Shown here: piece after piece, positions 20,469 to 32,938 of the stretch
Position numbering within the stretch: position 1 is the first letter of the stretch
Layout: every line of letters begins with the position of its first letter
Assembly (NCBI GenBank): GCA_030158185.1
Contig: JAOATP010000136.1
Location: 1-52,053 of the forward strand
Reading direction: 5' to 3'
DNA length: 52,053 nucleotides
Origin: Propionicimonas sp.
GTDB taxonomy: Bacteria > Actinomycetota > Actinomycetes > Propionibacteriales > Propionibacteriaceae
Translations under genes and position numbers: made by a program
The notes under the pieces: model-generated
Told to the model about the DNA's origin: nothing
Database searches by the model: none
Seen by the model: only the letters and a program-made list of their open reading frames with translations

Positions 20469-22358
20469 ATGCGCATCGCCCCCTACGGCGCCTGGCCCTC
20501 CCCGATCGCCGCCACCGACCTGACCTCGACCGTTGTCGGGCTCGATCGCGGCGTGGTGGACGGCAACCGGGTGCTGTGGACGGAAGCACACCCCGAGCAG
20601 GGTGGCCGGGTGAGCCTGTGGGCCAGCGACGCCGGCGGCGAACCCTTCGAGCTGGCGCCCGACCACAACGTCCGCAACGCCATCAACGAGTACGGCGGCG
20701 GGGCGTGGGCCGCTGCGCAGGGCTGGGTGGTCTACAGCACAGCGCCGTCCGGCGAGCTGTACGTCAGGGGTCCGCGCGGCGGGCGACGCCTGCTGGCACC
20801 CGGCGGTGATCGCCGCTACGGCTGCCTTGTCCTGCTCCCCCGCCGGCGACTCGTCCTCGCTGTGCGCGAGGACCACACCGGCGACGACGTGACGCAGTGC
20901 CTCGTCAGCCTCGACCTGGACACGATGAACCCCGACGGCGGCACCGTGCTGGCCACCGGGGCGGACTTCTACGCCTCGCCCGCGCTGCGCGCCGACGGGA
21001 TGCTCGCCTGGGTCGAGTGGCAGCTCCCCGCCATGCCGTGGGACGCGACCCGCCTGATGGTCGCGCCGCTCGACGGGACCGCTGCGCCCGTCCAGGTGGC
21101 CGGCGGGCCCGGCGAGTCGGCCGTCTTCCCCACCTGGGCGCCCGACGGCTCCCTGGTCTACCTCTCCGATGCTGCGGGCCACGGGAACTTCCACCGCTGG
21201 GACGGCGAGCTGGCCCGACGGCTGCACCGCCACGCCTGGGACTTCTGCGAGCCGATGTGGGCGCCCGATCCCCCGCCGTACACGATCCTCGCCGACGGCA
21301 GGATCGGCTGCTCCTGGCTGGAGGACGGCCTCGCGCGGCTCGGGTTGCTTGTCCCGGGAGGCCCGGCGGGTGACTGGTTGCTGGAGCCCATCGAGACCGG
21401 GGCTGTGAGCTGCACGCTCACCGGCACCGGCGCCCGGGTCGTCGCCCGACTGGGGTACGCCGAACGCCCGGCGGAGCTCCACGTGCTCGACCTTGTCCGT
21501 GGCGACGACCGCATGCTCCGTCGCACGGCTGCCCGTGTGCTCCCCGACTCGCTGGTGTCCCGGGCGCAGCCGCTCAGCTGGGACTCCACGGACGGCCCCG
21601 TCCACGCCTGGTACTACCCGCCGACCAACCGCGACTTCTACGCCCCCGCCGGCGAGCTGCCACCGGTGCAGGTGTGGAGCCACGGCGGACCCACCGGCTT
21701 CTCCGACCCGTCCTTCGACCTGCGCACCCAGTTCTGGACGACCCGCGGCATCGGCATCCTCGACGTCAACTACTCCGGCTCCTCCGGCTACGGGCGGGCC
21801 TACCGGGACCGGCTGCACCACGCCTGGGGCGTCGCCGACGTGCGCGACTGCGTCGACGGCGTCCGTACCCTCGTTGACGCCGGCTTCGCCGACCCGGAAC
21901 GGTTGAGCATCCGCGGCGGCTCCGCCGGTGGCTACACCACACTGGCTGCGCTCACCTCCACCGACGTGTTCGCAGCCGGCATCAGCCTGTACGGCATCGG
22001 CGACCTGGAGGCCCTGACCACCGACACCCACAAGTTCGAGTCCGGCTACAACGAGTGGCTCATCGCCCCGTGGCCCGAGGGCAGCGAGACCTACCGGGAG
22101 CGCTCCCCCATCCACCACCTCGACCGGCTCGCCTGTCCGATGCTGATCCTGCAGGGACGCCTCGACAAGGTCGTACCGCCCAGCCAGGCAGAGGCCATGG
22201 CAGCAGCGGTCCGCGCGAAGGGCCTTCCGGTGGAGCTGGTGTGGTTCGACGACGAGGGCCACGGGTTCCGCAGGGCAGAGAGCATCATCGCCACCGCACG
22301 CGCGGCTCTCGCGTTTCTCGGCCGCGTGCACGGTTTCGTCCCTGCACCGCCTGTCTAG
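20469..22358 (+). CDS. S9 family peptidase (dipeptidyl/acylaminoacyl peptidase-like)
   Basis: APYGAWPSPI, HGGPT, GGSAGG nucleophile, DKVVP and EGHGF. Confidence 0.92.
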   Translation: MRIAPYGAWPSPIAATDLTSTVVGLDRGVVDGNRVLWTEAHPEQGGRVSLWASDAGGEPFELAPDHNVRNAINEYGGGAWAAAQGWVVYSTAPSGELYVRGPRGGRRLLAPGGDRRYGCLVLLPRRRLVLAVREDHTGDDVTQCLVSLDLDTMNPDGGTVLATGADFYASPALRADGMLAWVEWQLPAMPWDATRLMVAPLDGTAAPVQVAGGPGESAVFPTWAPDGSLVYLSDAAGHGNFHRWDGELARRLHRHAWDFCEPMWAPDPPPYTILADGRIGCSWLEDGLARLGLLVPGGPAGDWLLEPIETGAVSCTLTGTGARVVARLGYAERPAELHVLDLVRGDDRMLRRTAARVLPDSLVSRAQPLSWDSTDGPVHAWYYPPTNRDFYAPAGELPPVQVWSHGGPTGFSDPSFDLRTQFWTTRGIGILDVNYSGSSGYGRAYRDRLHHAWGVADVRDCVDGVRTLVDAGFADPERLSIRGGSAGGYTTLAALTSTDVFAAGISLYGIGDLEALTTDTHKFESGYNEWLIAPWPEGSETYRERSPIHHLDRLACPMLILQGRLDKVVPPSQAEAMAAAVRAKGLPVELVWFDDEGHGFRRAESIIATARAALAFLGRVHGFVPAPPV

Positions 22359-22386: not shown

Positions 22387-23190
22387 TCACACGCTCTCGG
22401 CAAGCGCCCGGGACGCCATCCGCTCGCCCGGATGGGCCGGCCACCCGCAGGCGGAGGCGTAGAGGCAGATCTCGGTCTCGGGATCGATCCGCAGCAGGCC
22501 GGCGAGCTCGTCGTCGTAGAACCCGCCGAGGTTGACCGCGCCCAGGCCGAGCGCTACCGCTGCGAGGTTCAGGTTCTGCACCAGGTGACCGGCTTCGAGC
22601 AGCGCGTACCGGTAGCCCCGATCGCCGTACTTCACAAGGCTCCGGCCGGGGACGAAGCTCACGACGAAGACCACGGGTGCACGTGCCACCCAGTGCTGGC
22701 CCATGAACAGGTAGGTGACGAACGCCTCCGGCAGGGACACCTCCCGCACGAGTTCGAGTCCGTGGACGGCGGGCACGAAGTGGTGGACGCCGGGCGCAAG
22801 TCCTTCGACCCGCCGCACCAGCAGGCTGACCTCCAGTGGGTACAACCCTCCGCCGGAGGGCACCGGGCGGTCGTCCATCGTGTACCCGTCCCCCGCGCTG
22901 CGCCCGCCGACCCCGTAGCCGGCCGCCAGCAGGGCGGAGAGCTCGGCGAGGGTCACGGGGAGGTCCGTGAACGCCCGGCAGGACGCCCGGGCAGCGATCG
23001 CATCGGACAGCCCGGCAGGCAGGCGTGCCGGCGCAGGCAGCGGGAGGTACGGGGCGTCCGGGTCCTCGCGACCGGCGGTGAACTGCTGGCCGCCCGAACT
23101 GGAAGCGTTGAACTGCCACCGGGCGGTGGCCCGGTGGAACTCCCAGGCTGCCCGTTCGTGATCCCGCAGCCGGTGCGGCGCGACGTCCAT
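22387..23190 (-). CDS. SagB/ThcOx-family FMN-dependent azoline dehydrogenase
   Basis: RASCRAF, RPVPSGGGLYPLE, KYGDRGYRY (Lys-Tyr motif), LEAGH and GGFYD; ATG 1 nt after the YcaO stop. Confidence 0.9.
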   Translation of the reverse strand: MDVAPHRLRDHERAAWEFHRATARWQFNASSSGGQQFTAGREDPDAPYLPLPAPARLPAGLSDAIAARASCRAFTDLPVTLAELSALLAAGYGVGGRSAGDGYTMDDRPVPSGGGLYPLEVSLLVRRVEGLAPGVHHFVPAVHGLELVREVSLPEAFVTYLFMGQHWVARAPVVFVVSFVPGRSLVKYGDRGYRYALLEAGHLVQNLNLAAVALGLGAVNLGGFYDDELAGLLRIDPETEICLYASACGWPAHPGERMASRALAESV

Positions 23191-23191
23191 C

Positions 23192-25504
23192 TCAGGCCAC
23201 CGGATGGGGGGCGAGGTTGAGCTCGTCGAGCTCCGCCGGACGCGGCCGCAGGCCGAGCCGGTGCGGCATCGTCCGCAGCCGCGGGTGGCCCAGCCGGAAC
23301 TGGTCGGCGCCGAAGTGGATCGGCTGGAAGCCGGCGATGATGCCCCGCGCCACCCGGACGCCGAGCGCAGCGATGTCGTCGGTGGTGACATCGACGTAGA
23401 GCACGTCAGGGCTGACCGCTGCCAGGGAGCCCACGAGGCCGGCCAGGTCGGTCGGCGCGCGGTTACCGACCGCCTCCGACCATGTCAGCAGCTCGCCTTC
23501 GCGCCAGAATGAAAGCCCGCGGGCAGCTGCGGCCGGATCGGCGTAGAGCAGGTCGTGGTCCTCGAGTTCTGTCACCGTCGCAGGGTCGTCGACCAGTTGC
23601 GCCATCCGCTTGCGTACCTCGCCGCGCTGAAGGCGCAGGTGCAGGGCCGGACGGACCTGGGCGACCTCGAGCACAGCCTTGCGGGCGGCGGTGACCGGGT
23701 CGAGGGCGGCGCCGAGCCCGACGACGACGGCCGGCAGGCCCTCACTCCAGCCGAGGGCGATCGCCACGCTGGCTGCGCAGTCGGTGGGCAGCAGGTGCAC
23801 CTCGATCTCGACGCCGCGACGGTGGTAGAGGCCGGCGACCTGCGCTGCGGTGGCATCAGGGACGGTCCGGGCGTCCAGCCGCGGGGTGCTGAGGCGGTGC
23901 GCCCAGGCGATCAGGAACGCGTCGCGCTCGATGACTTCCAGCAGGCCGGCCTCGACAGCGTGGGCCAGCGTGGGGCCGGCGGCGAAGCCGTTGGACGTTG
24001 CCGGGAACAGGTACCCGGCGCGCTGGCTCACCTCGTGCCCGAGGTGGGCCGCCAGCCGCGGAACCCAGACGGTGTCACCGCTCACCAGCGACCGGGCGGT
24101 CACCCATTCGAGCTCGGAGTCCTCCGTGTAGCGGGCGAACGGGAGGGCGTCGTACTGGTGGTCGGCGAAGAGGACGAGTTCGGTGGGGTCGAGGCTCGGG
24201 CCCGGCAGATCAGCCCTTCGCGCCCGCCGCGCGCCGGGTGCGGGCCAGGTCAGCGAGGCGTACCGCTCGACCGCCTCACCAAGGGCGAGGTCGCGAGCGC
24301 GGCGCCGGTCCATCCCCTTGCCGGAGCAGGTGACGAAGGCGTCCGGTCCGGTGGCGAACCGGGCATTGGCCAGTTCTGCCCGCACGATGTGGGGGCGGGC
24401 AGGCTCGGAGGGGTCCTTGGGTACCTCGTCGAGGGCGCGGACCACGCCACAGAGGTCGCTGACCACCGCCCGCTCGATCGCATCGAAGTCGGTCGTCCGC
24501 TCCGGCAGGGCCGCGAGTTCAGCCAGCGTCGGGAGCACCGCGGGCTGCGGGAGGCCTTTTTTTCGGCAGGCCGGGCAGTCGGGCCGCTGCAGGACGGGGT
24601 GGCGGGTCTGGCGGCGTTCGAGCCCCTCGATCTGGAGGACGTGACCGGGCAGGCGGGCCGGCCCCGCAGCAACGAGCAGGGCCAGCGACTCCTGGATGAC
24701 GACCCCGGCCACCAGGGCTTGGAGCCCCGGCAGAACCGGCGGCGCTGTGCCGACGGCCCGTGCGTGGTCGCGCGCTTCCTCCCTCGCCATCGCGACGCCG
24801 AAGTCGTCGGCGCAGGCGAGCGCCCGCATCCGCCAGCAGAGGTAGCAGGGACCCTCGCCCGGCAGCACGAGGGGTCCGACGAACGCGTCCGAACCCTCGA
24901 GCGCCACCTGCAGCGAGGGGGTGTCGTTGTCGAGACTGAACCGGTTGACCCAGAGCCGGACGGCGGCCAGTCCGGGCTCGACCATCGCGACGACAAGGTC
25001 GCTACCGGAAAGCGCAGTGGCAAGGGCGTCGAAATCGAGGCGGGGCAGCGCCTCCGGGTCCACCAGCTCTGCGGCGTCGAGTCCGGCCCCTCGTAGGCCC
25101 GCCATCAGGTCGCCGGCCACCGACCTGTTCCCGACGACACGCACACGGGCGCTGGCGAGCGTCGCCGCAAGGCGCTGCCTGGTTGGCAGGTCGGCGCTGA
25201 GCAGTGTGGTCCACCCCGGGGGTGCCGGTTCCGAGGTGTCGGGGAGTTCCGTGACCAGCCCGGCGGCGACGAGCCGCACCACGAGGCGTTCGAGTTCGGC
25301 GCGCGGCAGGTCGGAGAGCGCGCCGTAGAGGTCGTCGGCTGTCGGTGTCATGGCAAGGGCGGGCAGCAGGCGCCGCCGCACCGCGTCTGCGACGCCACCG
25401 TCCAGCCGCAGCACGCCGGTGGCCGAGGCCATCAACAGCCCGTCAGGGGTGTCGATGACCTCGAGACCGGCGGCTGGGCTGAGCCGGGTGGTCCCGGACG
25501 TCAT
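23192..25504 (-). CDS. Fused RRE/E1-like leader-binding plus YcaO cyclodehydratase
   Basis: VGPLVLPGEGPCYLC and RPDCPAC (E1-like Zn site); SGKG, GEAVERY, TSNGFAAG and LLEVIERDA (YcaO ATP site); C-terminal PHPVA. Confidence 0.92.
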   Translation of the reverse strand: MTSGTTRLSPAAGLEVIDTPDGLLMASATGVLRLDGGVADAVRRRLLPALAMTPTADDLYGALSDLPRAELERLVVRLVAAGLVTELPDTSEPAPPGWTTLLSADLPTRQRLAATLASARVRVVGNRSVAGDLMAGLRGAGLDAAELVDPEALPRLDFDALATALSGSDLVVAMVEPGLAAVRLWVNRFSLDNDTPSLQVALEGSDAFVGPLVLPGEGPCYLCWRMRALACADDFGVAMAREEARDHARAVGTAPPVLPGLQALVAGVVIQESLALLVAAGPARLPGHVLQIEGLERRQTRHPVLQRPDCPACRKKGLPQPAVLPTLAELAALPERTTDFDAIERAVVSDLCGVVRALDEVPKDPSEPARPHIVRAELANARFATGPDAFVTCSGKGMDRRRARDLALGEAVERYASLTWPAPGARRARRADLPGPSLDPTELVLFADHQYDALPFARYTEDSELEWVTARSLVSGDTVWVPRLAAHLGHEVSQRAGYLFPATSNGFAAGPTLAHAVEAGLLEVIERDAFLIAWAHRLSTPRLDARTVPDATAAQVAGLYHRRGVEIEVHLLPTDCAASVAIALGWSEGLPAVVVGLGAALDPVTAARKAVLEVAQVRPALHLRLQRGEVRKRMAQLVDDPATVTELEDHDLLYADPAAAARGLSFWREGELLTWSEAVGNRAPTDLAGLVGSLAAVSPDVLYVDVTTDDIAALGVRVARGIIAGFQPIHFGADQFRLGHPRLRTMPHRLGLRPRPAELDELNLAPHPVA

Positions 25505-25516
25505 GAACGCCGGGAC

Positions 25517-25849
25517 TCAGCCACCGAGGCCACCGAAGCGCTCGATGCCCCCGGTCATCGGACCGATGTTGCAGGGTCCGCAGGTGCACTCGAAGATGCA
25601 CCGCTGGATGCACCGCTGGACGCAGAAGTAGTCGCAGAGCTTGATGCACCGCTGTGGACGGAAGCAGTCGTTGATCCCGCAGAAGTCGCCGTAGTCGGCC
25701 GCGATGACATCGCGCACCTTCTGGTAGGCGGCCATTTCCTCGGGGGTGAAGGCAGCCGTCGCCGACGCGGACGCGCCGGCGGCTGCCAACTTGTTCTCCA
25801 GTTCTTCGATCCGACCCTTCAGTGCGTCGAATTCCTCCTGGCTTGCCAT
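25517..25849 (-). CDS. Putative Cys-rich RiPP (azole) precursor peptide, 110 aa
   Basis: GAGGGAGG SD; helical leader; 10 Cys in CGINDCFRPQRCIKLCDYFCVQRCIQRCIFECTCGPC; Gly-rich tail; directly upstream of YcaO. Confidence 0.85.
   Translation of the reverse strand: MASQEEFDALKGRIEELENKLAAAGASASATAAFTPEEMAAYQKVRDVIAADYGDFCGINDCFRPQRCIKLCDYFCVQRCIQRCIFECTCGPCNIGPMTGGIERFGGLGG
25595..25654. repeat. 12-bp tandem repeat (5 units) encoding CxxxC periodicity
   Basis: GATGCACCGCTG x2, GACGCAGAAGTA, GTCGCAGAGCTT, GATGCACCGCTG on the + strand. Confidence 0.8.
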
Positions 25850-30808: not shown

Positions 30809-32938
30809 ATGCCTGCAGCCGACCGACCACCGGTGGCCCCCCGCCGTCCCTCCACGCGTACCCACCACGGCGATACCTTCACCGATCCCTACGCCTGGAT
30901 GCGGGACAAGACTGATCCGGAGTTCGTCGCCTACCTGAACGCGGAGAACGCCTACACCGACGCGGTCACCGCACCACTGGCAGAACTGCGGCAGGAGATC
31001 TACGGCGACATCTCGGCGCGCACCAAGCAGACCGACCTCAGCGTCCCGGAATTCGTCCGCCATCCCGGCCTCGGGGAGTTCTGGTACTACGCCCGCTCGA
31101 CGGAGGGGCTCGACTACCCCAGCTACCACCGCTGCCCTGCGCAGGGGCGCGACTCCCTGCCCGATCCCGGCAAGGGTGCCCCCGAGGGCGAGCAGTTGCT
31201 GCTGGACGCCCAGGCGCTCGCGGCGGGCACGGACTTCTTTTCCATGGGCTGCTTCGACGTCTCCCCCAACGGCCGGCTCGCCGCCTACTCCGTGGACACC
31301 AGCGGCGACGAGCGCTACCACCTCCGCTTCTTCGACCTGATCACCGGGCAGGCACTGCCGGACGAGGTGGCAGAAGTGGCATCCGGCGGCTGCTGGGCCG
31401 GCGACGGGGCGTTCTGCTACCTGACCGTCGACGACGCCTGGCGACCCGACCGCCTGTGGCGCCACCGTCTCGGCGACACCGGTGAGGACGAGCTGCTCCA
31501 CACCGAGGACGACGAACGGTTCTGGCTCGGCGTCGACTGCTCGCGCGACAACCGCTGGGTGCAGCTCGGCGCTGCCAGCAAGACCAGCACGGAGACCTGG
31601 CTGCTGGACGCCACCGACCCCGCGTCCACCCTGCGCTCGGTCGCTCCCCGGCGCGACGACATCGAGTACGACGTGGAGGTGGCAGGCGACCGGCTGTTCA
31701 TCGTCCACAACGACGGCGCCCCCGACTTCGCGCTGGCACAGGCGCCGCTGACCTCCACCGACGCGACCGACTGGACGCCGATCTGGCCGGGCGAGCCCGG
31801 CGTCCGGCTGCTCGGCGTCGTCTCCTACGACCGCGTGCTGGTGCAGAGCCTGCGCCGCGACGGCCTGCAGGTCGTCACCCTGCGCCACCGGGACGCTGCC
31901 GGCGATGTCGGCGAGGAGGTCGGCATCGCGTTCGACGAGCCGATCTACACCGTCGACGTCGACGGTGGCGACGAGGCCGACACCGACCGCATCCGGTTGC
32001 ACTACCAGTCGATGGTCACCCCGGACGAGGTGATCGACTACCGCATCGCGGACGGCACCCGCACCGTCCTGCGCCGCCGGCCGGTGCTCGACCACCCGGT
32101 CCACGGCCCCTACCGGCCCACCGACTACCGGCAGCAGAGGGTGTGGGCAGAGGCCGGGGACGGCACCCGCATCCCGATCTCGCTGGTGTACCGGGCCGAC
32201 ACCCCGCTGGACGGGAGCGCCGGCTGCCTGCTGTACGGGTACGGCGCCTACGAGATCAGCGTGTCCCCGTCCTTCTCCATCGCACGCCTCAGCCTGCTCG
32301 ACCGCGGTTACCTCTACGCGGTCGCCCACGTGCGCGGCGGCGGCGAGCTCGGCAGGGCCTGGTACACCGGCGGCCGCCTCGAGGCGAAGGAGAACACCTT
32401 CACCGACTTCATCACCTGCGCGCGCTACCTGGTCTCGGCCGGCTACACCACCACCGGACGGCTGGCAGCCGAGGGTGGCAGTGCCGGCGGCCTGCTGATC
32501 GGCGCAGCCCTCAACCTCGCGCCGGACGCGTTCGCAGCCGTCCACGCCGCCGTCCCGTTCGTCGACGCCCTCACCACGATCCTCGACCCGGAGCTCCCGC
32601 TGACGGTGATGGAGTGGGAGGAGTGGGGCGACCCGCTGCACGACCCGGAGGCGTACGCAAGGATGCGGCGCTACTCCCCCTACGAGAACGTCAGGGCAGC
32701 GCAGTACCCGGCCGTCCTCGTCACGACAAGCCTCAACGACACAAGGGTCGAGATCACCGAGCCGGCCAAGTGGGTGGCTGCCCTGCGGCACGACTCCGGT
32801 TCCAGCAGTCCGATCCTGCTCAAGACCGAGATGGTCGCCGGCCACGGCGGCAGTTCCGGGCGCTACCAGGCCTGGCGGGACGCTGCGTTCGAGCTCGCCT
32901 GGCTGATCGCTGCGACCCCGCCTCCTCCGAAGGACTGA
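30809..32938 (+). CDS. ptrB: Oligopeptidase B (S9A)
   Basis: DPYAWMRD, YGYGAYE, HVRGGGELG, GGSAGG, EEWGDP and AGHGG. Confidence 0.92.
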   Translation: MPAADRPPVAPRRPSTRTHHGDTFTDPYAWMRDKTDPEFVAYLNAENAYTDAVTAPLAELRQEIYGDISARTKQTDLSVPEFVRHPGLGEFWYYARSTEGLDYPSYHRCPAQGRDSLPDPGKGAPEGEQLLLDAQALAAGTDFFSMGCFDVSPNGRLAAYSVDTSGDERYHLRFFDLITGQALPDEVAEVASGGCWAGDGAFCYLTVDDAWRPDRLWRHRLGDTGEDELLHTEDDERFWLGVDCSRDNRWVQLGAASKTSTETWLLDATDPASTLRSVAPRRDDIEYDVEVAGDRLFIVHNDGAPDFALAQAPLTSTDATDWTPIWPGEPGVRLLGVVSYDRVLVQSLRRDGLQVVTLRHRDAAGDVGEEVGIAFDEPIYTVDVDGGDEADTDRIRLHYQSMVTPDEVIDYRIADGTRTVLRRRPVLDHPVHGPYRPTDYRQQRVWAEAGDGTRIPISLVYRADTPLDGSAGCLLYGYGAYEISVSPSFSIARLSLLDRGYLYAVAHVRGGGELGRAWYTGGRLEAKENTFTDFITCARYLVSAGYTTTGRLAAEGGSAGGLLIGAALNLAPDAFAAVHAAVPFVDALTTILDPELPLTVMEWEEWGDPLHDPEAYARMRRYSPYENVRAAQYPAVLVTTSLNDTRVEITEPAKWVAALRHDSGSSSPILLKTEMVAGHGGSSGRYQAWRDAAFELAWLIAATPPPPKD

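What the first reader, a model, noticed from the sequence alone, without database searches (positions are those of the whole stretch)
24519..24565. Candidate programmed -1 frameshift at the E1/YcaO junction: one gene, two RiPP maturation proteins
Seen: right after the last Zn motif of the leader-binding/E1-like half (RPDCPAC), the minus strand reads CGA AAA AAA GGC (T7 on + at 24557-24563). Lys here is almost always AAG, and I saw no other A/T homopolymer this long in the window. A_AAA_AAA fits the X_XXY_YYZ slippery pattern in the correct frame. A -1 slip gives KK-RPPAARGAPDAG-stop (TGA at 24521-24519), a ~328-aa protein ending at the domain boundary, versus the 770-aa fusion. A possible stimulatory stem (CAGCC-C-GCG...CGC-T-GGCTG) starts 9 nt downstream. 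Established: frameshifting yields a shorter functional product in E. coli dnaX and copA and in some chlD genes; azole cyclodehydratases occur either as separate C + D proteins or as fusions. Inference: this locus may make both a free RRE-E1 subunit and the fused enzyme in a set ratio. I do not know of this being described for RiPP cyclodehydratases.
Basis: partly seen in the sequence, partly recalled or inferred. Interest (0 to 1): 0.88.

Follow-up and report, generated by a model that had tools for sequence, protein, structure and literature searches.

The report
Conserved frameshift in peptide-modifying enzyme gene
A run of A bases at the domain boundary of a peptide-modifying enzyme gene is kept across several bacterial phyla, and it likely lets one gene make both the full enzyme and a free helper subunit, a trick known from DNA polymerase but not found described for this enzyme class.

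Summary
The A7 (24557-24563, minus strand) is the window's only A/T run of 5 or more. It is in phase as A_AAA_AAA right after the CxxC that ends the RRE-E1 half of a fused azole cyclodehydratase. In the gene's clade, 59 of 80 deduplicated homologs carry A7-A11 there; 0 of 58 loci outside the clade do. In GC-rich members the Lys pair is AAA-AAA in 41 of 42. A -1 stop follows within 13 codons in 29 of 33 (4.2 expected), with no +1 excess. Several lineages show the reverse layout: YcaO lies in the -1 frame with no evident start of its own, and is intact and under purifying selection. This mirrors dnaX. Best reading: -1 ribosomal frameshifting here (slippage likely at the longer runs) yields a free 328-aa RRE-E1 subunit beside the 770-aa fusion. 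That would give two E1 domains per YcaO, as in McbB2D and HcaF-HcaD. No separate E1 gene was found in these clusters. Nothing is shown experimentally. 18 in-frame relatives lack the run, and this window's hairpin alone is not significant. My literature searches found no prior description.

The parts
25517..25849 (-). Precursor peptide gene (110 aa from the ATG at 25849, SD-like GAGGGAGG at 25860-25853). Helical leader, then a core with 10 Cys in CxxC-like repeats ending ECTCGPC...RFGGLGG
   Evidence: Sequence. Same family directly upstream of most homologs. No Pfam or NCBIfam match at cut-off.
23192..25504 (-). Fused azole cyclodehydratase, 770 aa: RRE + E1-like (ThiF) half, linker, YcaO
   Evidence: PF00899 161-311, PF02624 394-726. 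TIGR03882 and TIGR03604 above cut-off. Full-length match to TruD and LynD.
24566..24577 (-). Last CxxC (CPAC, residues 310-313) closing the E1-like domain
   Evidence: conserved in homologs.
24557..24563 (-). Slippery heptamer A_AAA_AAA (CGA AAA AAA G), predicted -1 shift site
   Evidence: conservation.
24520..24547 (-). Candidate 3' stimulatory hairpin, 9 nt after the run; its 3' arm ends in the -1 stop
   Evidence: MFE fold but z -0.02 alone. Group-level stability peak 0-6 nt after A7 in 25 homologs. No consensus pairing.
24519..24521 (-). -1 frame TGA, formed by GCT GAA in the 0 frame; ends the predicted 328-aa RRE-E1 product
   Evidence: -1 stop within 13 codons in 29 of 33 GC-rich in-frame run-bearing homologs.
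22387..23190 (-). SagB-type FMN dehydrogenase (azoline to azole), ATG one base after the cyclodehydratase stop
   Evidence: TIGR03605 above cut-off; start from sequence; same gene follows in 7 of the 13 homolog loci whose neighbours were scanned.

Best explanation
This three-gene cassette (precursor, fused cyclodehydratase, dehydrogenase) carries a conserved in-phase A_AAA_AAA at the E1/YcaO boundary, where a fraction of ribosomes likely slip back one base and stop 12 codons later, which would give a free 328-aa RRE-E1 subunit beside the 770-aa enzyme. Shown: the motif, its conservation, the -1 stop bias and the reverse layouts. Inferred: two tRNA-Lys slip -1 at the A7, helped by a GC-rich hairpin just downstream. 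Also inferred: in lineages with 9-11 As, RNA polymerase slippage does the same job. Predicted: the free subunit pairs with the E1 domain of the fusion, so its RRE forms the leader clamp and the complex holds two E1 domains per YcaO, as in McbB2D and HcaF-HcaD. That complex would turn the many Cys of the precursor into thiazol(in)es together with the dehydrogenase.
For: (1) Clade of 80 deduplicated homologs: 59 have A>=7 within 24 nt of the CxxC (28 A7, 10 A9, 20 A10, 1 A11). 0 of 58 loci outside the clade do. (2) Among 58 members with gene GC >=0.62, 42 have Lys-Lys at the site and 41 of these are AAA-AAA, against AAA 49 of 309 Lys elsewhere in the same genes. In the 30 whose pair is not followed by another Lys or Asn codon, the preceding codon ends in A in 29 (CGA, GCA, TCA, GGA), against about 7-9% A-ending background for R, A, G and 4% for S. 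(3) -1 stop within 13 codons in 29 of 33 GC-rich in-frame run-bearing genes (4.2 expected); +1 stop in 6 of 33 (7.5 expected). The stop is built from T-ending codons of many amino acids, which precede GAN codons in only 240 of 3,671 cases elsewhere. (4) Reverse layout, YcaO in the -1 frame: 8 run-bearing representatives plus L134 (A6), at 7 separate places on the tree. L059/L091/L092 (3 assemblies) read in -1 as the linker of their in-frame sister L056, with the same A10 length. L033/L166/L134/L135 share the layout across dS about 0.4, with YcaO dN/dS 0.27-0.29 and an intact PHP-type C-terminus. Truly split relatives lack the run and mostly show SD plus start codon. (5) In 25 A7 genes the 40-nt window starting 0-6 nt after the run is the most stable within +/-150 nt (mean about -17 kcal/mol, mean z -1.1 to -1.2). 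The same window gives z about 0 in 15 run-less genes and about -0.1 to -0.6 in 17 A9+ genes. (6) No second E1-like gene in 87 clade loci within the flanks held, none among 60 neighbour proteins, and only two weak extra matches in the own, 80% complete genome. (7) Complex model, residues 1-318 with 95-770: score 0.86, best of 3 controls 0.00. The mark was reached by 51 of 78 solved and 2 of 108 mismatched pairs; runs agree in at least 98% of contacts; partner pLDDT at least 86. It may be memory of LynD/TruD. (8) Precedents read as passages: B4C2D2 (PMC6395948), HcaF:HcaD 1:1 (PMC10634744), dnaX in both layouts and by both mechanisms (PMC3711429; PMC5009743).
Against: No experimental evidence. 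18 of 68 in-frame clade members lack the run, including three with Cys-rich precursors (L032, L039, L096), and one AAG-AAG case (L030). L032 and L039 stay under purifying selection against their run-bearing relatives, so the site is dispensable in some lineages. Both loci from a blind draw of 400 Actinomycetota genomes (L175, L176) lack the run; they match the run-less subclade. 9 of 16 run-less GC-rich genes also have a near -1 stop; these may be relics, or partly a linker feature. The window's own hairpin is not significant and no consensus structure exists. A_AAA_AAA is much less shift-prone than A_AAA_AAG in E. coli (PMC5009743). The predicted interface is the same one a fusion homodimer would use, so it does not favour the heterodimer. 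Homologs are related, so counts overstate independence, and in AT-rich Bacteroidota A-runs are common anyway. L042, L066, L104 and L130 are single assemblies, so a one-base homopolymer error is possible. L137 has a TGATG overlap that allows re-initiation.
Confidence: 0.68

Rival explanations
1. Same two products, but made in this gene by RNA polymerase slippage on the T7 template (an extra A in some transcripts) rather than by the ribosome.
For: 31 of 80 clade members have A9-A11, the length range tied to transcriptional slippage (PMC3711429; PMC5009743). L138/L140-143 have A9 with YcaO in the +1 frame, which suits slippage in both directions.
Against: This gene has only 7 As, below the n>7 range quoted there. 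All 28 A7 cases are exactly the in-phase heptamer. The 3' hairpin signal is seen in A7 genes and only weakly in A9+ genes. Stops are enriched only in the -1 frame.
Confidence: 0.14
2. The shift is real, but the short product is a by-product or a dosage device (lowering YcaO, or freeing an RRE-E1 that serves the dehydrogenase) and not a partner of the fusion's E1 domain.
For: LynD and TruD fusions work as homodimers without a free E1 (PMC6395948). TclI binds the dehydrogenase separately (PMC10634744). The run is lost in some intact clusters.
Against: The site sits exactly at the domain end in every case, the -1 tail is kept short, and reverse layouts make the free E1 the default product. The complex model is compatible with pairing.
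Confidence: 0.1
3. No recoding. The A-run is a rare-codon pause for folding at the domain boundary, a U-tract of an antisense terminator on the plus strand, or a DNA-level phase-variation tract.
For: CGA and AAA are rare codons. A weak terminator-like site is called at + 24542-24557. L137 (A10, -1) and L138 (A9, +1) differ in run length and frame.
Against: The terminator call is 1 found vs 0.8 expected, with a 5-pair stem. None of these explains the -1-specific stop bias or the out-of-frame YcaO genes kept under purifying selection. L056 and L059 differ in frame with the same A10. A7 length is invariant in 28 genes and in the DNA contigs laid.
Confidence: 0.08

Closest known systems
dnaX tau/gamma recoding (E. 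coli -1 PRF at A_AAA_AAG; T. thermophilus A9 slippage; reversed two-ORF dnaX; PMC3711429, PMC5009743)
   Same: One gene, a long and a short N-coterminal subunit, poly-A site at a domain boundary, both layouts, and A7 and A9-10 variants in one family.
   Different: Different gene family; A_AAA_AAA rather than A_AAA_AAG; no upstream SD-like stimulator noticed by eye (not tested); untested experimentally.
chlD/cobalt chelatase frameshift (PMC9227772; A_AAA_AAR per PMC5009743)
   Same: [quoted passage not shown]
   Different: In chlD the described genes are overlapping ORFs; here 50 of 59 run-bearing genes are a single intact ORF, so frameshift finders would miss them.
Heterocycloanthracin HcaF-HcaD and thiopeptide TclI-TclJ (F-protein-dependent TOMMs; PMC4603692, PMC10634744)
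   Same: A free RRE-E1-like protein works 1:1 with a fused E1-YcaO; HCA precursors also have Cys-Xaa-Xaa repeats (title of PMC2674419 in the listing).
   Different: There the F protein is a separate, divergent gene and the fusion lacks about 100 N-terminal residues. Here the fusion keeps its RRE and no F gene was found.
Microcin B17 synthetase McbB4C2D2 (PMC6395948)
   Same: Two E1-like subunits per YcaO, with a dehydrogenase in a three-component system.
   Different: McbB and McbD are separate genes; no recoding is mentioned (0 hits for 'frameshift' in the text).
LynD / TruD fused heterocyclases (PDB 4v1t, 4bs9)
   Same: Same RRE-E1-YcaO architecture over the full length and the same E1-E1 dimer surface.
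   Different: Homodimers of the fusion; a cyanobactin-like relative (P0113) lacks the Lys pair after CxxC.

Membership tests
TOMM/LAP cluster | E1-like C domain plus YcaO D domain | tested here: met
TOMM/LAP cluster | Cys/Ser/Thr-rich precursor and FMN dehydrogenase nearby | tested here: met
TOMM/LAP cluster | Azole-containing product made | not testable with these tools
   No chemistry; no protease or exporter was shown to belong to the cassette.
Programmed -1 ribosomal frameshift (dnaX type) | In-phase X_XXY_YYZ heptamer | tested here: met
   A_AAA_AAA.
Programmed -1 ribosomal frameshift (dnaX type) | Purifying selection on the site at synonymous positions | tested here: met
   AAA-AAA in 41 of 42; A-ending preceding codon in 29 of 30.
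Programmed -1 ribosomal frameshift (dnaX type) | Defined product in one alternative frame | tested here: met
   -1 stop 29 of 33 vs +1 stop 6 of 33; reverse layouts.
Programmed -1 ribosomal frameshift (dnaX type) | 3' stimulatory structure | tested here: inconclusive
   Group-level peak; not significant in this gene; no covarying consensus.
Programmed -1 ribosomal frameshift (dnaX type) | Shifted protein detected; mRNA unaltered | not testable with these tools
   RNA contigs of 4 runs do not cover the site.
Programmed transcriptional slippage (T. thermophilus dnaX type) | Homopolymer of about 8-9 or more A/T | tested here: not met
   7 As in this gene; met by 31 of 80 relatives.
F-protein-dependent TOMM (HCA/thiopeptide) | Separate ocin-ThiF gene and RRE-less fusion | tested here: not met
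   No second E1-like gene; the fusion has the N-terminal RRE region. It may work like one without being one.

The most novel reading that the evidence does not exclude
A multi-phylum, so far undescribed family of Cys-rich azole-peptide cassettes builds its synthetase from one gene by recoding. The gene encodes its own scaffold (F/McbB-like) subunit through an A-run at the E1/YcaO boundary. Lineages switch between ribosomal frameshifting (A7 plus hairpin) and polymerase slippage (A9-11), and between fusion-by-default and fusion-by-shift. This would be the first recoding event in RiPP maturation enzymes, and an evolutionary intermediate between split C+D and fused CD cyclodehydratases.
Probability: 0.62. 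Interest if true: 0.88.

Novelty: new variant of a known kind. Interest (0 to 1): 0.82.

Why it matters
Few chromosomal bacterial gene families are known to make two subunits by recoding (dnaX, copA, chlD). This would add one that spans several phyla and is mostly hidden inside intact ORFs. It gives a simple route between fused and split cyclodehydratases and explains how a three-gene cassette could reach two E1 domains per YcaO. Practical consequence: codon-optimised or purified full-length enzyme would lose the short subunit, so reconstitution of these clusters could fail for an invisible reason. Relatives annotated as split or broken (P0117, P0118) would be working genes. It can be tested with one synonymous mutation.

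Tried and rejected
RNA evidence: 4 metatranscriptome runs, contigs only, touch the precursor and parts of the gene but not 24432-25151, so nothing can be said on A8 transcripts. tRNA-Lys set: ARAGORN found no Lys tRNA in the 80% complete assembly, so the idea that A_AAA_AAA is preferred because the host has both Lys tRNAs is recalled and untested. A consensus hairpin across 19 actinobacterial sequences was not found. Single-sequence AlphaFold of residues 1-313 was poor (pLDDT 43) and was not used for fold searches. The ML tree did not finish; FastTree was used, and midpoint rooting makes the support label on the clade's stem unreliable. Sequencing error in the window was rejected (and homolog conservation). 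Chance was rejected. A sigma-70 promoter scan found none. Earlier-scan look-ups by words and by sequence returned nothing. One search returned 8 notes, 7 holding both words, none about this junction. Sharrar 2020 (PMC7298704, passages) describes CPR LAP clusters and was not shown to be this family. Loci left out of counts because the CxxC or YcaO start was not located or the locus was distant or partial: L003-L011, L053, L058, L063, L082, L083, L139, L156. L002 duplicates L012 at the junction.

Full report
Observation. The minus strand at 24577-24548 reads TGC CCG GCC TGC CGA AAA AAA GGC CTC CCG. The T7 at 24557-24563 is the only A or T run of five or more in the window and one of two runs of seven in the 2.84-Mb assembly. 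In 1,443 heuristically chosen long ORFs, Lys is AAA 467 times and AAG 13,160 times; AAA-AAA is 3 of 429 Lys-Lys pairs. The -1 reading gives KKRPPAARGAPDAG-stop, so 328 aa against 770 aa. DNA contigs from three of four runs laid cross the site with no indel.

Anatomy. The cassette has three genes on the minus strand. First is a 110-aa precursor (25849-25517; 10 Cys in the core). Second is the fused cyclodehydratase (ThiF 161-311, YcaO 394-726, TIGR03882 and TIGR03604), with full-length similarity to TruD and LynD. Third is a SagB-type dehydrogenase (23190-22387). The A7 lies one codon after the last CxxC of the E1 half. The closest named homolog is from a Propionicimonas MAG at 86% identity.

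Conservation. Lys-Lys follows the CxxC in most of 112 protein homologs. DNA was obtained for 79 genome loci and 80 metagenome loci, each set the best-scoring part of a capped scan. The junction was located in 153 loci including the window's, or 131 after merging at 95% identity. One clade on a long stem holds 80 representatives; 59 have A7-A11 at the site, against 0 of 58 loci outside it. By record title the run occurs in Actinomycetota, Bacteroidota, Gemmatimonadaceae, Thiodiazotropha, Vicinamibacteria and a MAG labelled Cyanobacteriota. In GC-rich loci it is usually the only A7/T7 in 5-12 kb; in AT-rich Bacteroidota such runs are common, so those cases weigh little alone.

Synonymous signals. 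Among 58 members with GC of at least 0.62, the Lys pair is AAA-AAA in 41 of 42, against AAA 49 of 309 elsewhere. The codon before it ends in A in 29 of 30 across Arg, Ala, Ser and Gly. A -1 stop follows within 13 codons in 29 of 33 GC-rich in-frame run-bearing genes (4.2 expected from the same genes), and a +1 stop in 6 of 33 (7.5 expected). The -1 stop is built from rare T-ending codons of many different amino acids, and the tail peptide is not conserved. These genes are kin, so the counts are descriptive and not independent trials.

Reverse layout. Nine representatives have YcaO in the -1 frame with a run of 6-10 As, at seven places on the tree, and one has it in the +1 frame. In L059/L091/L092 the 0 frame stops within two codons of the run, and the -1 frame continues with a linker matching the in-frame sister L056, with the same A10. 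In L033/L166/L134/L135 the frame break lies downstream of the run, is shared across dS about 0.4, and YcaO stays intact with dN/dS 0.27-0.29 (0.59 for the close pair L033/L166). Their 0-frame products are in the databases as stand-alone E1 proteins (P0117, P0118). No SD-plus-start is evident for these YcaO frames, whereas truly split relatives lack the run and mostly show one. Caveats: four cases are single assemblies; L137 has a TGATG overlap; the L138 group (five near-identical assemblies, +1, 0 frame open 200 codons) fits slippage or a broken allele better than a -1 shift.

Stimulator. Across 25 A7 genes, however, the window starting 0-6 nt after the run is the most stable within 150 nt on either side (mean z -1.1 to -1.2). 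This is absent in 15 run-less genes and weak in 17 A9+ genes. That pattern fits ribosomal shifting at A7 plus a hairpin, and polymerase slippage at longer runs (inference).

Results against. 18 of 68 in-frame members lack the run. Both hits in a blind draw of 400 Actinomycetota genomes lack it and belong to the run-less subclade. 9 of 16 GC-rich run-less genes keep a near -1 stop. Loss tracks precursor type loosely: of 53 loci with five or more core Cys, 48 have the run, three in-frame genes do not, and two are truly split; of 17 with fewer Cys, 7 have it. Eleven of the 81 loci examined had no precursor located. This is confounded by relatedness.

Role of the short product. No second E1-like gene was found in 87 clade loci within the flanks held, among 60 neighbour proteins chosen from 88 called in 13 loci, or convincingly in the own genome. 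A model of residues 1-318 with 95-770 scored 0.86, best of 3 controls 0.00 (mark reached by 51 of 78 solved and 2 of 108 mismatched pairs; contacts agree at least 98%; partner pLDDT at least 86). The interface is E1 to E1, with the free RRE touching the fusion's E1 domain and no confident YcaO contact. This resembles LynD/TruD, may come from memory, and does not separate heterodimer from homodimer.

Comparison with what is known. Two E1 domains per YcaO is established for McbB4C2D2 (PMC6395948, passages) and for HcaF:HcaD 1:1 and TclI-TclJ (PMC10634744, passages; PMC4603692, passages). dnaX shows both layouts and both mechanisms (PMC3711429, passages; PMC5009743, passages, which also cover copA and chelatase). 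chlD yields two subunits from one gene (PMC9227772, part 1 of 4 read). Searches for a prior report: frameshift+YcaO+cyclodehydratase gave 2 papers; PRF+RiPP 13; slippery/BGC/frameshifting/YcaO 4; transcriptional slippage+YcaO 0; frameshifting+TOMM+thiazole 0; frameshift/RRE/fused cyclodehydratase 8, of which 5 were listed; precursor motifs 0. Of these, PMC5009743 and PMC10634744 were read in passages; the rest were judged from listings and abstract starts, and none concerned this. PMC3711429 has no YcaO or bacteriocin term in its text or in two supplements; one supplement was not searched. Most subscription papers are outside the library.

Verdict. The feature is real and under selection as a frame-transition signal (about 0.9). 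-1 ribosomal shifting in this gene that gives a free scaffold subunit is the best reading (0.68). It is a new variant of a known kind of recoding in a family where I found none described. Interest 0.82.

Noticed in passing
window 25517-25849 and homolog loci: A widespread precursor family with a helical leader, a CGINDC/CGINEC ... ECxCGPC core and an RFGGLG-like tail has no Pfam or NCBIfam model at cut-off and no literature hit for its motifs. Cores range from 6 to 24 Cys, which suggests a metal-binding or heavily heterocyclised product.
   Followed up: partly
L108 and L095, upstream of the cyclodehydratase: Precursors with tandem repeats such as TCACANRPGA or SCANRAAMA, typical of multi-core cassettes.
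   Followed up: no
L138, L140-L143 junction: A9 with YcaO in the +1 frame, the 0 frame open for 200 codons, and the -1 stop overlapping an ATG (TGATG). Its relative L137 has A10 and the -1 layout. Unexplained.
   Followed up: partly
L072, L073, L080, L087 (Thermomicrobiales/Chloroflexia) linker: Fused relatives outside the clade carry a strong C-rich/G-rich hairpin in the same linker (z -1.3 to -3.7). It may be a repeat-element insertion or a different signal.
   Followed up: no
L027, L028, L029, L031, L051, L119, L123, L133, L148: Fusions that have lost the N-terminal RRE region, beside precursors with one or two Cys; most have also lost the A-run.
   Followed up: partly
window 20469-22358 (+) and 30809-32938 (+): Two S9 prolyl oligopeptidase-family genes flank the region. 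The cassette sits between the first and an amino-acid ABC transporter operon. No evidence that they belong to it.
   Followed up: no
L043, L162: Members inside the clade with separate C and D genes and no run; L043 has a clear SD and ATG. They are natural controls for the two-subunit idea.
   Followed up: partly
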